A stretch of DNA of 64,000 nucleotides. Origin: Schmidtea polychroa (taxonomy: Eukaryota). Position 1 is the first letter of the stretch. Each line of letters begins with the position of its first letter. A program made the translations under genes and the position numbers. The notes beneath the pieces are model-generated. The model saw only the letters and a list, made by a program, of their open reading frames with translations, was not told where the DNA came from and searched no databases. Of this stretch, positions 16,473-24,193 are shown one piece after another. The DNA is taken from assembly GCA_044892525.1 (NCBI GenBank), contig CM097885.1, forward strand, positions 78,244,001-78,308,000, read 5' to 3'.

Positions 16473-17526
16473 TGTTGAGGTCAGTAAATTAAAATAAATT
16501 TAAATGAAATTTAGGTTAATAATTTAAATATAAAGTAAGTGAAGAAAAAAGACAAATAAAAGCGTGATCATGCACAAAATTGATAGTAAAGGAAAGTATA
16601 ATGGAAGTGGTATTGGGAAATGGCAAAAGCAGTTGCGCGAAAGGCAAGAATCCCGAAATCCGTGGAAAATCGATAAATTGTAAAATCATCGAAATCGAAT
16701 TGGGAAAACGGGACATGTATAGATTAGCTAATGGTCAACAAGATAATAATTAGAGATTTATCAGAAAATGGTTAGGAAGGATCGAAAAGTATTCAAATGA
16801 GTAAAAACAGAAAACATTAATTAATTAATTAATTGGCTAATAGAAAACCCGAGCTAATGGGAAACCCGAGCCAATGGAGAACCCGAGAGATAAAGGAAAC
16901 CCGAGCTGGGTAAAAAAGAAGAAAAGTAAACAGAAGGAAGATTTGGGCCCATTAGCTTGGCATGATGATTAATTGGAAAAGAGCAAGGAGAAGATAGTGC
17001 GTGTAGAAAGGCCGGACCGGCCATTAATTATCTTTGTTCGTTGGACCATTACCGGTGACAGCCGAAGCAGATACGTGGAAGCAAATGTCAAGTGAAAGAT
17101 TGGCTCGGCAATAACCATTTGTCATCCCGATTTCAAAGAGTATATAAGGAAGGGGAAAATCAGAGCAAATCTGCATTTTGCCTCAGGTAGGGTAAGAAGA
17201 AATTAAGCTTAGGAAAAGGCAAAAACGAATTTAGGAGATTAGGGAAAAAGAAGAGAGAATAAGAATAAAAAGAATGAGAAAGGATCAAATCAAAGAAAAA
17301 AAGGGAAAACGTTGATCAAGAGAACCTAAGGGAATAAAAGGTGAATATTATCTTTATCAAAGCATCAACACCAAGCGGAGAATCGGTCAAATGTAACTTT
17401 GATTATTGAGTGTTGAGAAAAGATTGTGAATTTTGTTATTTCAATATACGTTGGGTCGTTATTGTTTTGATTTAAAAGACACGAGGAGTCAGAGGTAACC
17501 GACTTAAATTAACTAAAAACCCAACA
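16473..17526 (+). mobile_element. 3' LTR of a Gypsy-like element (family B) with upstream polypurine tract
   Basis: AGGGGGGAGATA directly before TGTTG; ends in CCCAACA. The terminal gagtcaga..ccgactt block is shared with the LTRs at 50822 and 61928. 45 bp of it recur exactly at ~14779-14823. Confidence 0.8.
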
Positions 17527-17637: not shown

Positions 17638-18060
17638 CTATTTGTGGTGGTCAATTGTTATAACCGTTTTCGACGGAGTAGTATTTAGATCGTCAGTTCC
17701 TATCCGTTGCGGATCTTCAAAGATGTTTGAGGGAATAGTGCTGCAGTTTAATTGGTTATTTATCCTTAAAGTGCGACCACGGCAATCGACATGTAGTTCG
17801 TTAGCGCTTAAAAAATCAGATCCTAATATGGGGATAATAACCTCTACTATATAAAATTTCCACTCAAATAATTGGTCGGACAAAAACGGCAACGAGAAAG
17901 CAATTGTCTTTGAACCTAACGTCTCAACAACCTTACCGTTTGCGGCCTTCAAAGAAATATCGACAGTGTTGAGGTCTGGAAGGTACTCATTAGGTAAGAT
18001 CGACAAGCTGGAACCAGTGTCGACAAGGAATTTTAGTCTGTTGGAAGGAGACGACAATAT
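17638..18060 (-). pseudogene. Ty3/Gypsy-type aspartic protease (retropepsin)
   Basis: KFLVDTGSSLSILP...LKAANG...PILGSDFL..L.VD: catalytic DTG and GxDFL motifs. Truncated downstream near the LTR ending at 17526. Confidence 0.9.
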
Positions 18061-18275
18061 ATTAAAAGCGTATGGTGTCACTCCGTAATCACCCAAGGTA
18101 CGACTGTCAGAAAGGATGTTGCTGTTGTACGACAAGAGAAAACGGCATTTGTGATTAGTTAATAATTTGTAATGCTATAATTTTGGGAAATACCTTCAAT
18201 TGTAGTATCTGTGTCAACTGGAACGGTGTGTGCCTTAATTGTTCCAGGATTTTCTATTAATATTTGGAACTTTTT
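18060..18275 (-). pseudogene. Ubiquitin-like domain (disrupted by a frameshift and a stop), in frame with the protease at its 3' end
   Basis: KKFQILIENPGTIKAHTVPVDTDTTIEGI / KCRFLLSYNSNILSDSRTLGDYGV aligns with ubiquitin MQIFVK...TLEVEPSDTIENV / [20 protein letters not shown]. No terminal Gly-Gly. Confidence 0.75.
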
Positions 18276-19127
18276 GGGCCCCGGTGCGGCGCTACCCTCA
18301 CGTGTGGGCTGATGCTTATTCAATTTTAATTTATTTAATAAGGGTAATTTATTTAAATAATTTATTGTAATTTTATATATAATATCAATAATAGTATAAA
18401 TCAATAATAATATAATAGTATAATTTAGAGATAATTGATCTAAGGTACCTGACGGTGCTGACACGGTCATTGCTTGATTAGTCTCATTGTGAAAATAGGA
18501 TGATGTTGACTGATGAGATTCATTCGTCCATACATTAGACTCGACGGTTGATCTGTTTCGTTGACTAGCTGATGACGGATTTCCTAATTCTTTACTGCAG
18601 GCTGCCGCAATCTCACCGTCAATCACCGACGGACTACTCTGGTCAACTGTGTGACTACCCCAGCCATCAATTCGATTAATAAGGTTCAGAAATTGTTCAG
18701 CTACTTCCTGTTTAACACCATCGTCATTTTTCACAGATGTTTGAAGGCCTTTTCCGGCAGCTTGAGCCCAAGTTTGGTGTTCGCTGTTTTTATCATTACT
18801 TCCTCTTGAATCTAGATTATTTAAGTCACTATCGTCTAAAGAACCGATATCATTAACAGCTGAGCTATTGAAAGCACTGAATAGAGGAAATTCGGATTTA
18901 ATATCCGATGATTCAGCTTGTAATTGAATACTTTTACTGATAAATTTGGAAGACGATTTATTTATCGGGTCAACAATTTGAAATTGACCATTTAGAATAG
19001 GGTTATTATCTATGATATTTGCAGAGGTTGAAATGGAATTACTTGATGATGTGGGCTGCTGAGTGGCGTATGTGATAACAATATGCAAATTGAAAGCTTC
19101 ATTCATCAACCATGTAAAACTCGACAA
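18159..19127 (-). CDS. 322-aa ORF: low-complexity Ser/Asn region with a GW182/TNRC6-like segment, ending in the start of the UBL domain
   Basis: Long open frame. TWAQAAGKGL...EQFLNLINRIDGWGSHTVDQ (~18630-18775) resembles, from memory, the invertebrate Gawky N-terminal WAQAAGK...DGWG..VNQ motif. An AT-rich stretch at ~18310-18445 may be an intron. Confidence 0.55.
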   Translation of the reverse strand: MSSFTWLMNEAFNLHIVITYATQQPTSSSNSISTSANIIDNNPILNGQFQIVDPINKSSSKFISKSIQLQAESSDIKSEFPLFSAFNSSAVNDIGSLDDSDLNNLDSRGSNDKNSEHQTWAQAAGKGLQTSVKNDDGVKQEVAEQFLNLINRIDGWGSHTVDQSSPSVIDGEIAAACSKELGNPSSASQRNRSTVESNVWTNESHQSTSSYFHNETNQAMTVSAPSGTLDQLSLNYTIILLLIYTIIDIIYKITINYLNKLPLLNKLKLNKHQPTREGSAAPGPKKFQILIENPGTIKAHTVPVDTDTTIEGISQNYSITNY

Positions 19128-20045
19128 AAGGTTCGTTTAATAATGTATAATAATTCGTTTCCATTCGATTTTCAAATTCTGTCTCTCAACTCATCTCATT
19201 TACTTCTGGTTCTCCAAAACTCTCAAGTGGATCATTATCTAATTCGTTATTTCGATTCTATTTTTCTGGAATTATTTCTGTGCCGCAGGACTTTAATTCC
19301 AATCGCTCTGATTGGTTGTTTTAATTTTACGTTTTAATTTAATGATTTATTTTTTAATTATTTCTTTTTTCTTTTGATCCTGCTTGGTCGATCCATTGCT
19401 TTTTCTACGCCATTTTTCGCCTTGACTCGCGGGTGTTTTTCTGTATTTTTGGATCTTTTTTCCATGATTTTTCGCTATTCTAATGGCAGAATTCTATGTT
19501 ACATGTGCAACTTCTTGCATTTTTCGATTTTATTATTTTTGTTTTATTTTTATTTTCTCTTGTGTTTCTATTTTTGTTTATTTGGTGTTTGGCATTTATT
19601 TTAAACAAACTTAAGGCTTTTTTTAAATGCTATTTTTTGCCTTCATCGACATTTCCCCTTAAGTTTCCTAATTTAAACAAGAAATAAAACAGAAGAACCC
19701 ATTCGGACCTATTTCAGAAAAACCTTCTAGTCCAACAATATAATATCTGAAAATAACTAGCCCCTTAAACCAGATATTTAAATATGGAAGTGACCGCTTT
19801 TAGACAGCGTTATATTAAAAGTAATCCTATTAATAATCCTATTAATCCTATTATTGGGATCTCGATTGTGATGGTGACGATTTACCATTCAATCAATTGG
19901 AATGAATAACCACTTTGCCTATGCCATAAATATTTCATGAATTTTCTCTATTTTTATTTTAGATCTGTAATTACTTTTCTGTTGTAAATTATTTAGAAAG
20001 CGTGCTCGTTATTTAATAATATGATTTATAGTTACTTGTTGTTTT

Positions 20046-21340
20046 ATGAGTTATAATGTAAATTTTGTCTTCATTCATTTTATTGTGAGCTTTTACTTAG
20101 ATCATTACAGGGTCTTGGCTGTGTTCTGTTCTGGTTTGGTACTGATTATGAGTAGAGTGTATGACAGGTTCCTATTCACGTCTTTCAACTGTAGGGGGTG
20201 CGACTTGTTATTGAATCATGCTGACGATGGTGATTGGTTGCAAAAGTACGTGAAAACCGAATTTGGGAAAGAGCTCATGTTGATTTTGGACTCAAAACAC
20301 GGTGGAACAGCTATGTTGGAGCGGTTCTTAAAATTGAAGTCAGCTATTCAAAAAGCTTTGATCGATATTAAATCAAGCTATCAGTTTTCGGTAAATGAAT
20401 TCAGCCTGCTGTCTGAAACTATTGGTACGCTTACTCCAATTAAATATGCCCTCGAAGCTATCTGCCGTCAAGATGCTAATCTATTGATTGCAGATGTAAC
20501 TTTGAAATTTCTAATTTGCACTCTGGGAAAACTAAACTGCGTTCTTGCGAACGACATGAAGAATGCATTAGAATTCCGAATTAAGGAAAGAAGAACCGAT
20601 TTATCAGGTTTGTTGCAGTATTTGCACAGTGGTTATGCTAATAGTTCATCTTCCTTCACTGACCTATTCCCTGCTTTGAAGAAAATCAAGATAAAGAGAC
20701 TCTTATTGAATATGGTGCAACGACTATTTATATCAGAATCATATAATGAAAATGACGAACTACGACAGCAGCATAGCGACGAAAATGTTAGTATGGAAGT
20801 TTCGATAGTAGAAGAAACCGAAAACGACGCCGATACGATGCAAAGAGCAATTGATCAGGTACACCTGACAAACTGAACACATTTTCTTCCACATCTTCAA
20901 TAATCGAAAAAACTTCAAAACGTGAGCTTGCTCAATTTGAATATGATGGAAATCACGGTAAATGGTTAGATTTTTGTTATAAAACCTTAAAATCCATTCC
21001 TCCTACCGGTGTGGAATCGGAGAGGGCGTTTTCCGTATCCTGAAACTTTTGTACAAAACTGAGATCACGATTAAGCGATGAAACGATTGATAATTTATGT
21101 TTTCTACGAGCTCATTTTAATAAAATTTAAAAACATATTTTTCCAGAATTTGTCTAATAAAAACGTTAATGTTGTTTTGTTAATGAATTATATAATTTTT
21201 TTATATTTTTAAATAAATATTATCTTTTTTATACATGAATTAAAATGAAAAAAAAGGTAAAATTGAAAAATTTTTACAAAAAATAGAAAAAAAACAGTTA
21301 CTTTTAAAACCCGATTAAAAACCGATTAAAATCAAAAAAT
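20046..21340 (+). mobile_element. hAT transposase, 3' half (Ac/ZBED-like) with dimerisation domain
   Basis: ORF 20046..20876 (MLERFLKLK...PIKYALEAICRQDANLL), then in a broken frame SIPPTGVESERAFS...LRSRLSDETIDNLCFLR. Subterminal aaccgatt repeats near 21310. Confidence 0.9.
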
Positions 21341-22851: not shown

Positions 22852-24193
22852 CACTATAGGACATTGATTTATCATAAGGACATTCAATAAGCTAAAAATT
22901 TTCATTTTTAAATCAAATTATTATCAAAATGTTCGAAGATATTTCAGAAGCTTCTTCAGAATCAACAATTCCATTTCAAGAAATTCATAGAAATGTGTAA
23001 GTTTTTCATTAAACTTTATTTATTTTTTAAAAATCGATATAGAATTACCATTAAAGATAAAGAAAGAATCATTAAATCCATGGAAGATGGCCATGATTAT
23101 TATGAATTAGGCCGTATTCTTGGAATTAAGCGGAATACAATAACCAGCATTATTTTGAAATATAAGAAGACTGGAATTTTATCCGCAGGAACAAGAGGAG
23201 GCAATCGACCAACAATTATCACAACAATTATTGGCCAGGAATTATTGAACTATGTCGAAAGAAATTATTATTCGACATTAAATCAAATGAGATTGTTTTT
23301 ATCTACAAATCACAATGTAGAAATTTCCACAAAATCAATATCCAGGTACCTGAAAAATCAATTATTAACCTTCAAAAGGATCAGGCCTTGTGTGGAAGAA
23401 AGAAATTCAGATAGAATATTGGATATTCGGCAGACATATGTTACACGTCTGCTTGAAGAAGGTTGGAGGAGCAGTAAATCTATTTATATAGATGAATGCT
23501 CTTTCAATACATGGACAAACAAGAGATTCGGAAGATCTCGAGTAGGCACTCGAATTTACAGCAATGTGCCAACAAATCGAGGTCCCAATATTTCATTAGT
23601 TTTGGCAATATCCAAAAATGGGCCAATCCATTCACAAATCATCATTGGCTCTTTTAGAAAGGAATCATACCAGTCATTTATAACAGAATTGACTGAGAAA
23701 CTGAATGGCTCTGGATTCATTTTGATACACGATAATGCATCCATCCACAATAATGTATTATCTTTGAACAATCACATAGAAAAGTTGCCTCCATATAGTC
23801 CATTTTTGAACCCCATCGAAAGTGTGTTCAGCAAGATTAAAAATGGGGTAAGGACTAAAGTTTCCTCGACTAATGGATTTTCCAGGATGAGTTTCAATGA
23901 CAGATTTATCGCAATATCCCAAGCAGTTATCGAGGAACTTAGCAAACCAGATTATAGTAATTTGAAAAATTACTATAATCATATTAAAAGGTTCTTCCCT
24001 AAATGCTTGAAGAAGCAGGATATTTTAGGTGAATTCTAAAAAATGTAATGTATATTATAATAAATAATTAAATATCTTACTTCTTTATTCATTATTTTTA
24101 AAAAAATCTTAAAATTAACTAAAATCCAGAACAAAGCTTATTTGACAAAGCTAAATGAATGTCTCATTTATGATAATTAAATGCGCTTTGGTG
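22852..24193 (+). mobile_element. IS630/Tc1-like DNA transposon
   Basis: Imperfect ~45-bp TIRs (cactataggacattgatttatcataaggacattca vs reverse complement caccaaagcgcatttaattatcataaaatgagacattca). TA at the right end; encloses the transposase. Confidence 0.75.
22929..24039 (+). CDS. IS630/Tc1-family DDE transposase, two exons (22929-22996, 23043-24039)
   Basis: HTH region, IYIDECSFN, LIHDNASIH, LPPYSPFLNPIE. The 46-nt GTAAGT...TAG intron (22997-23042) joins MFEDISE...RNV to ITIKDKER in frame. No stops. Confidence 0.9.

What the first reader, a model, noticed from the sequence alone, without database searches (positions are those of the whole stretch)
17638..19127. Chimera: GW182/TNRC6-like segment + ubiquitin-like domain + Gypsy retropepsin
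Seen: one minus-strand run, broken by one frameshift and one stop. A 322-aa ORF with WAQAAGKGL...INRIDGWGSHTVDQ runs into a ubiquitin-fold sequence that is contiguous in frame with a DTG protease of Gypsy type. Established: GW182 N-terminal GW motifs bind Argonaute, and UBL+retropepsin is the Ddi1 architecture, although Ddi1 has a DSG motif and an intervening helical domain. Inference: a retroelement captured host RNA-silencing and ubiquitin modules (possible Argonaute decoy), or a new chimeric gene arose. The GW182 match is from memory and only about 45 aa long.
Basis: partly seen in the sequence, partly recalled or inferred. Interest (0 to 1): 0.8.

Follow-up and report, generated by a model that had tools for sequence, protein, structure and literature searches.

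The report
Retrotransposon wearing stolen host mRNA pieces
This stretch is a broken, dead copy of a young, multi-copy jumping gene whose capsid protein is written behind a patchwork of spliced host messenger-RNA pieces (a real GW182 fragment among them) and a ubiquitin-like spacer that likely lets the cell cut the patchwork off, so the GW182 piece is likely a passenger rather than an Argonaute decoy.

Summary
The three parts are real but are not a new gene. The window is an LTR-less relic of a Ty3/Gypsy family of about 100 copies. The in-frame UBL-protease junction is a private 1,136-bp deletion of Gag (1 match in the genome). In intact copies ORF1 reads: host-derived leader, ubiquitin-like domain ending GG, Gag; Gag has no Met of its own.

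The GW182 match is real: 537 bp, 94.6% identical to the single host exon. But the motif's invariant Trp is lost in 10 of 11 full-length pieces, and 19 of 20 sampled young copies keep only a Trp-free part. An Argonaute decoy is unlikely.

The family serially captures spliced host mRNAs: adhesion GPCR, TRIP12 and GW182 in the leader, and 5' ends with start codons (TGR, ENGase, isochorismatase) inside the LTR. All six traced pieces are in native frame. Cleavage at GG is inferred, not shown.

A distant relative (P0063, 35% identity) has the same layout. This scan found the layout before on other DNA, in BEL/Pao elements of this genome; I checked one. No RNA or protein evidence was obtained.

The parts
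19060..19129 (-). Last 70 bp of a captured adhesion-GPCR (7tm_2) mRNA piece; the 5' end of the relic
   Evidence: 94% to a host exon at G000:C1:199.17 Mb; sister copies carry the same piece spliced across at least five introns; Pfam 7tm_2 E=3e-13 in sister L022
18515..19051 (-). Captured piece of the host GW182/TNRC6-like first coding exon (179 codons; 4 of the exon's 19 Trp in the host; motif Trp changed to Ser here)
   Evidence: 94.6% over 537 bp to the single-copy exon at G000:C3:1.33 Mb; motif conserved in flatworm homologues; Trp status
18423..18517 (-). Remnant of a captured TRIP12-like E3 ligase mRNA; overlaps the GW182 piece by 3 nt
   Evidence: 92.6% over 95 bp to a host exon at G000:C1:132.03 Mb; that exon matches TRIP12 at E=1.7e-48; an older copy lacks the about 50-nt intron that follows
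18344..18425 (-). AT-rich stretch coding a hydrophobic run, in frame; source not traced
   Evidence: Open in intact copies; shared variants show no constraint, omega 0.73-1.48
18286..18343 (-). 58-bp piece probably from another host transcript (not traced)
   Evidence: A 1,216-nt contig of run X4 matches it with 2 differences and goes on unlike the element at both ends
18070..18275 (-). Ubiquitin-like domain, broken by an 8-bp insertion (about 18172-18165) and cut before its last strand and di-glycine
   Evidence: intact sister UBL PF00240 E=1.9e-9, its GG aligned to ubiquitin's C-terminal GG
18069..18070 (-). Junction of the private 1,136-bp deletion that removed the UBL tail, all of Gag and the gag-pol frameshift site
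   Evidence: 1 match in the genome; other copies hold about 1.1 kb between the two halves
17638..18069 (-). 5' part of pol with the retropepsin (DTG at 18021-18013); similarity to the element ends at 17638
   Evidence: 96% to pol of intact copies; Pfam RVP

Best explanation
The window is a dead, internally deleted copy of a young Ty3/Gypsy family whose first reading frame is a mosaic of spliced host mRNA pieces, then a ubiquitin-like domain ending in GG, then Gag; the pieces likely came in by reverse-transcriptase template switching, and a host or element protease likely cuts after GG to free Gag, which would make the GW182 piece a tolerated passenger. Shown: the layout, the host sources, the missing introns, the frame, the private deletion. 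Inferred: host mRNAs are co-packaged and RT switches onto them at a few shared bases. Gag has no Met of its own, so only captures that keep the frame open survive. When the switch happens next to the primer site, a host 5' UTR with its AUG ends up inside both LTRs and would start ORF1. Cleavage after GG would give Gag a fixed N-terminus whatever sits upstream.
For: Intact copies have TG..CA LTRs, 5-bp target duplications in 13 of 13 checked, and ORF1 open from inside the LTR through GG to the Gag end in 13 of 23. LTR pairs are 98.7-100% identical in 16 of 20 sampled loci. Domain order is UBL, DUF7041 Gag, PR, RT, RH, IN. Six traced leader pieces are all sense and in native frame: TGR (44-nt intron gone), ENGase (48-nt intron gone), isochorismatase, adhesion GPCR, TRIP12, GW182. 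Shared bases lie at the GW182 ends (3 and 7 nt, read). The first Met after GG is about 135 residues into Gag. Shared variants: leader 65 N/27 S against Gag-Pol 16 N/56 S, p=5e-10. GG is kept in 32 of 34 copies that reach it. P0063 shows an LRRC47 piece, UBL-GG and a related Gag, and P0008 begins where P0063's GG ends. An unrelated BEL/Pao-type ORF reads phosphatase piece, two ubiquitins, GG, Gag. Ubiquitin insertions act as cleavage signals in pestiviruses (PMC8310069, passages).
Against: No RNA or protein evidence for the chimeric ORF or for cleavage. The UBL's shared variants (16 N/9 S) look like the leader's (p=0.63), not like Gag-Pol's (p=4e-4), so its sequence is weakly constrained, and GG retention inside a family only about 5% diverged is weak evidence. 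The tail is LPLSGG, not ubiquitin's LRLRGG, so recognition by ordinary deubiquitinases is not assured. The full GW182 piece shows some constraint in older copies: variants shared by 2-6 copies are 11 N/10 S against 64/17 for private ones, p=0.024. A Met in the TRIP12-derived piece could start a shorter ORF1. The variant counts are not independent events. P0063 is one record whose DNA context I could not see.
Confidence: 0.7

Rival explanations
1. Argonaute decoy: the older subfamily kept the GW182 piece because the released leader binds Argonaute and dampens silencing.
For: The piece holds a motif conserved across flatworm GW182 homologues. Of the three other Trp codons, 30 of 33 are kept across 11 copies. 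Variants shared by 2-6 copies have omega 0.29 (p=0.024 against private ones). One copy (L035/L036) holds a longer, 97%-identical piece with the motif intact, probably a second capture. Plant viruses use WG/GW mimics (PMC4615383, passages).
Against: The invariant motif Thr and Trp are changed or deleted in 10 of 11 full pieces. The breakpoint cuts off the most conserved Trp-rich block just after the piece. Only 4 of the exon's 19 Trp were taken. Only 14 element copies hold the 3' half, against about 100 candidates for the 5' part; 19 of 20 sampled young copies keep only the Trp-free part. Repeated capture from host alleles could mimic purifying selection. GW182 is one of at least seven unrelated captured genes.
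Confidence: 0.08
2. New chimeric or Ddi1-like gene: the window locus makes a UBL-retropepsin protein.
For: The UBL middle and the protease are in one frame.
Against: The junction is unique. The UBL is frameshifted and lacks its last strand. No LTR or primer site flanks the relic. The protease is 96% identical to pol of mobile copies.
Confidence: 0.03
3. The UBL is itself an old passenger or a stability tag. The leader stays on Gag or is removed by the element's own protease, or Gag is made from a shorter message.
For: UBL constraint is no stronger than the leader's. The tail is non-canonical. A Met lies about 135 residues before GG.
Against: The UBL-GG sits directly before Gag in this family, in P0063 at 35% identity and in an unrelated BEL/Pao-type element, while everything upstream turns over.
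Confidence: 0.17

Closest known systems
LTR-mediated retroposition in metazoans (Tan et al. 2016, PMC5131818; passages read)
   Same: Partial, spliced, sense-strand host mRNA pieces inside LTR elements, short shared bases at the junctions, chimeras of several genes, further rounds of copying.
   Different: In the passages read, the retrocopy replaces part of the internal ORFs and the loci act as non-autonomous elements. Here gag and pol stay whole in many copies, captures stack up in front of a UBL-GG, and host 5' ends enter the LTR itself.
Bs1 of maize (as described in PMC5131818 and PMC13317346; passages)
   Same: An LTR element with pieces of three host genes joined in one chimeric ORF.
   Different: Bs1 has 1-5 copies with fixed switch points. 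This family has about 100 copies and many interchangeable leaders and LTR ends. No ubiquitin spacer is mentioned for Bs1 in the passages read.
Ubiquitin insertions of cytopathic pestiviruses, e.g. BVDV CP Rit (PMC8310069; passages)
   Same: A captured host fragment plus a ubiquitin moiety sits before a viral protein; there, host hydrolases cut after it to give the authentic N-terminus. This is the working model here.
   Different: An RNA virus with near-canonical ubiquitin and cleavage shown by experiment. Here the UBL is diverged and fixed in the family, and cleavage is untested.
Burro/GYPSM1 giant Gypsy elements of planarians (PMC6431247; passages)
   Same: A Gypsy element with host-like extra domains, including a Ubi2/SUMO-like one.
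   Different: Burro exceeds 30 kb with Gag at the N-terminus of one huge ORF. This family is 7.6-8.8 kb, with the extra pieces and the UBL before Gag. No sequence comparison with Burro was made.
CsRn1-clade Ty3/Gypsy elements (PMC2582038; passages)
   Same: CX2HX9CX3C Gag signature (twice here), DTG protease, -1 overlap of gag and pol.
   Different: 5-bp rather than 4-bp target duplication; the primer site does not look like tRNA-Trp (recalled); no RT tree was built.
Ddi1/DDI2 shuttle proteases (recalled)
   Same: UBL followed by a retropepsin fold.
   Different: Here an accidental product of a deletion: DTG motif, no helical domain, broken UBL.

Membership tests
Ty3/Gypsy LTR retrotransposon (the family of the window copy) | Paired TG..CA LTRs with target-site duplication | tested here: met
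   13 of 13 checked copies have 5-bp duplications; the window relic itself has no LTR
Ty3/Gypsy LTR retrotransposon (the family of the window copy) | Gag, then PR-RT-RH-IN order | tested here: met
   Pfam on L033/L034
CsRn1 clade | CHCC (CX2HX9CX3C) Gag signature | tested here: met
   Two tandem matches read in ORF1; definition
CsRn1 clade | tRNA-Trp primer site | tested here: inconclusive
   The site after the LTR looks like a tRNA-Leu type from recall; no tRNA comparison was run
CsRn1 clade | 4-bp target duplication (as in PwRn1) | tested here: not met
   5 bp in 13 of 13
CsRn1 clade | RT phylogeny | not tested
   No tree built
GW182/TNRC6 (the host donor gene) | Trp-rich disordered N-terminus with conserved motifs | tested here: met
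   19 Trp in the exon; motifs shared with 7 flatworm proteins; all 10 Atlas rows shown for homologue P0002 are Gawky/TNRC6 clusters, best 0.93, a lead without E-values
GW182/TNRC6 (the host donor gene) | UBA domain | tested here: inconclusive
   Below-cutoff UBA hits (E 0.03-0.05) in 1 of 7 and 3 of 6 homologues; the exon was not located in the host locus
GW182/TNRC6 (the host donor gene) | Q-rich region and C-terminal RRM | tested here: inconclusive
   Q-rich exon present; a last exon resembles the homologues' C-terminal block by eye but has no Pfam hit
GW182/TNRC6 (the host donor gene) | Binds Argonaute | not testable with these tools
   No complex job was run
Ddi1/DDI2 | Intact UBL, helical domain, DSG retropepsin in a host gene | tested here: not met
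   Broken UBL, no linker domain, DTG, 96% identical to mobile pol
LTR-mediated retrocopy (Tan et al. 2016) | Intron-less partial mRNA with shared bases at the junctions | tested here: met
   Introns missing in 4 of 6 traced leader pieces; the GW182 and isochorismatase pieces lie within one exon, so they give no test
LTR-mediated retrocopy (Tan et al. 2016) | Replaces internal ORFs, leaving a non-autonomous element | tested here: not met
   ORF1 and the 1,129-codon pol frame are both open in at least 6 copies
Ubiquitin-like processing signal | Ubiquitin-family sequence ending in di-glycine before the mature protein | tested here: met
   PF00240 E=1.9e-9; GG aligns with ubiquitin's GG
Ubiquitin-like processing signal | Cleavage after GG | not testable with these tools
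   Needs protein work

The most novel reading that the evidence does not exclude
A ubiquitin spacer before Gag has arisen at least twice, in Gypsy and in BEL/Pao elements of one animal genome. It uncouples the capsid from its own start site, so that still-autonomous retrotransposons swap in host 5' ends (start codon, perhaps core-promoter sequence) and 3' ends as interchangeable LTR modules and keep sampling the host transcriptome.
Probability: 0.4. Interest if true: 0.8.

Novelty: new variant of a known kind. Interest (0 to 1): 0.58.

Why it matters
The window copy itself is ordinary debris. The family behind it is a young, countable natural record of serial mRNA capture by an autonomous animal retrotransposon, with donors, breakpoints and layers readable. 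If cleavage at GG holds, it explains how such an element tolerates hundreds of foreign residues on Gag, and it parallels the pestivirus ubiquitin trick. It also warns that host-gene hits in this genome (GW182, TGR, ENGase, lipin, TRIP12) can be transposon cargo, which would confound annotation, RNAi design and small-RNA mapping.

Tried and rejected
Ddi1-like gene: rejected. Intron at about 18310-18445: rejected. A functional transmembrane helix at 18344-18425: no constraint seen. RNA: no RNA holder listed. Four contig runs were laid, three only guessed to be RNA and one of unknown kind. No listed piece bridges the 18069/18070 junction, and the deepest cover of the GW182 piece comes from contigs that continue into the host gene. 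One low-depth X1 contig crosses the GW182-TRIP12 join, but X1 also covers the flanks, so it may be DNA. None of this is evidence on expression. Single-sequence AlphaFold of the UBL gave pLDDT 48, so no fold search was run. A metagenome scan for relatives found none. The host source of the 597-bp Q/N-rich segment of young copies was crowded out by element copies (40 of 90 scored). The supplement of PMC5594548 (1 file searched) did not confirm the trematode ids as GW182. PMC2714752 is not held. No tRNA genes in the window. No complex prediction and no RT tree were run. Literature: five searches found no paper on a host-leader/UBL-GG/Gag Gypsy family. The library lacks most subscription papers and repeat databases, so this does not show absence.

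Full report
Observation. The minus strand holds a 325-codon frame (19136-18159) and a 178-codon frame (18174-17638). Pfam finds a retropepsin and a weak ubiquitin hit in the second and nothing in the first.

The locus is a repeat. A genome search (781 Mb, 40 of 242 candidates scored) returned two kinds of hits: query 1-1067 and query 1063-1496, about 1.1 kb apart in other copies. One intact natural copy (L033/L034) has 1,343-bp identical LTRs, a 915-codon ORF1 and a 1,129-codon pol in the -1 frame. Pfam gives ubiquitin (E=1.9e-9), DUF7041, PR, RT, RH and IN in that order. Against it, the window has an 8-bp insertion in the UBL and a 1,136-bp deletion from inside the UBL to just before the protease. 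The junction pattern matches once in the genome at up to 2 mismatches. No LTR of the family flanks the window copy. The Ddi1-like layout is therefore an accident in a dead copy.

The family is young. Of 20 further loci taken from the top 40 hits, 16 have LTR pairs of 98.7-100% identity. All 13 copies checked have 5-bp target duplications. ORF1 is open from inside the LTR, across the primer site and GG, to the Gag end in 13 of 23 young copies, and in 12 of these the first Met lies in the LTR. Three searches gave 102, 104 and 90 candidates. These are estimates, since only 40 were scored each time. The Gag has the CX2HX9CX3C signature of CsRn1-like elements (PMC2582038 passages), but the duplication length differs and no tree was built.

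The GW182 piece is real. Window 19051-18515 is 94.6% identical to one exon at C3:1.33 Mb. Sequence beyond the breakpoint is single-copy, and 13 of the 14 element hits end at the same base, the other 4 bases short. The exon's 7 database homologues are flatworm proteins (6 named, 1 unnamed), two labelled UBA-containing, and they share three motifs. All 10 Atlas rows shown for one homologue are Gawky/TNRC6 clusters. A profile search found 52 proteins without names. UBA hits stay below cutoff. A divergent flatworm GW182 is described in PMC5594548 (passages and one supplement file). I call the donor GW182-like with good but not complete support. The host is likely a planarian; this is inferred from the flatworm homologues.

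The decoy idea. I examined 11 of the 14 copies with the 3' half, leaving out a near-duplicate of one, an interrupted copy and a 43-bp remnant. The motif Trp that is invariant in the alignment is Ser in 9 (the window included), deleted in 1 and kept in 1; the invariant Thr is changed in 10. The capture stops just before the most conserved Trp block and takes 4 of 19 Trp. Of the 20 sampled loci, 19 keep only a Trp-free 197-209 bp and one keeps a single Trp. In favour of the decoy: the other three Trp codons mostly survive (30 of 33), and variants shared by 2-6 copies have omega 0.29 against 1.0 for private ones (p=0.024). One copy looks like a second capture from the host, so host alleles may contribute to that signal.

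GW182 is one of many captures. The window starts in an adhesion-GPCR piece that sisters carry across at least five missing GT-AG introns. After GW182 come 95 bp of a TRIP12-like exon, and an older copy lacks the next intron. About 20 nt of TRIP12-like sequence also precede the GW182 piece (E=0.027), with 7 and 3 shared bases at the two ends. LTR variants share a 5' core and end in different host 5' ends with the native ATG: TGR (44-nt intron gone), ENGase (48-nt intron gone) and isochorismatase. One variant holds 806 bp of the lipin 3' end. All six traced leader pieces are sense and in native frame; several other pieces were not traced. This fits template switching onto co-packaged mRNA as modelled by Tan et al. 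(PMC5131818 passages), followed by selection for an open frame.

Why the element tolerates it. The first Met after GG is about 135 residues into Gag, so Gag must be read from upstream. Shared variants are 65 N/27 S in the leader and 16 N/56 S in Gag-Pol (p=5e-10; young copies alone p=7e-7). These counts are not independent events. The GG aligns with ubiquitin's C-terminal GG and is kept in 32 of 34 copies. P0063, 35% identical, reads LRRC47 piece (E=3e-19), UBL-GG, DUF7041 Gag. P0008 starts where that GG ends, and the 6 near-length relatives are Gag-only. Earlier notes of this scan describe the same layout in BEL/Pao elements of this genome. I checked one: phosphatase, two ubiquitins, DUF1759, with no similarity to this family's ORF1. 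In pestiviruses such insertions are cut by host hydrolases (PMC8310069 passages). Against: the UBL is no more constrained than the leader (p=0.63), its tail is non-canonical, and nothing here shows expression or cleavage.

What I saw of the papers: passages of PMC6431247, PMC5594548 (plus one supplement file), PMC5131818, PMC13317346, PMC8310069, PMC4615383 and PMC2582038; other papers only as search listings. The Ddi1 features and the tRNA-Leu label are recalled. Five searches found no description of this layout; repeat databases and subscription papers were not searchable.

Verdict. The window is a relic. The family is a new variant of gene-capturing LTR elements, with a likely ubiquitin spacer. 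Interest 0.58.

Noticed in passing
window 22912-24039 (+): Open 375-codon Tc1/mariner-type transposase frame (DDE_3 E=5e-19).
   Followed up: no
window 20025-20876 (+): 283-codon frame that reads like a hAT transposase piece by eye; no significant Pfam hit.
   Followed up: no
window 19295-19707 and 16755-16832: The flanks of the relic belong to another repeat (315 candidates, 72-87% identity). One related locus matches both flanks in opposite orientations, hinting at an inversion around the relic.
   Followed up: partly
L034:1982-2787 (LTR of the C4:90.67 Mb copy): 806 bp of the host lipin gene's 3' coding end and 3' UTR, 98% identical, inside both LTRs of two copies.
   Followed up: yes
L054-L070: 17 fetched loci hold an LTR variant ending in the thioredoxin-glutathione reductase 5' end without internal sequence, likely solo LTRs.
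   Followed up: partly
window 18668-18590 and sister copies: Seven amino-acid changes and no silent change shared by 7 or more copies cluster in codons 140-155 of the GW182 piece, starting at the conserved motif. This could be chance, host drift, or selection to disarm the motif.
   Followed up: partly
L035/L036 (C1:226.52 Mb): A copy with a longer GW182 piece, 97% identical to the host, with the same 3' breakpoint and two in-frame gaps; likely a second capture guided by homology.
   Followed up: partly
L110, L109, L034 LTR ends: Further LTR 3' modules that open ORF1 and whose host donors were not traced; the captured 5' ends tend to begin right at an AATAAA.
   Followed up: no
L164/L165 (C1:1.93 Mb): My fetch aimed at earlier finding e1-7907883 showed only a GPCR-like frame of 300 codons or more and no LTR pair, so that note was not tested.
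   Followed up: no
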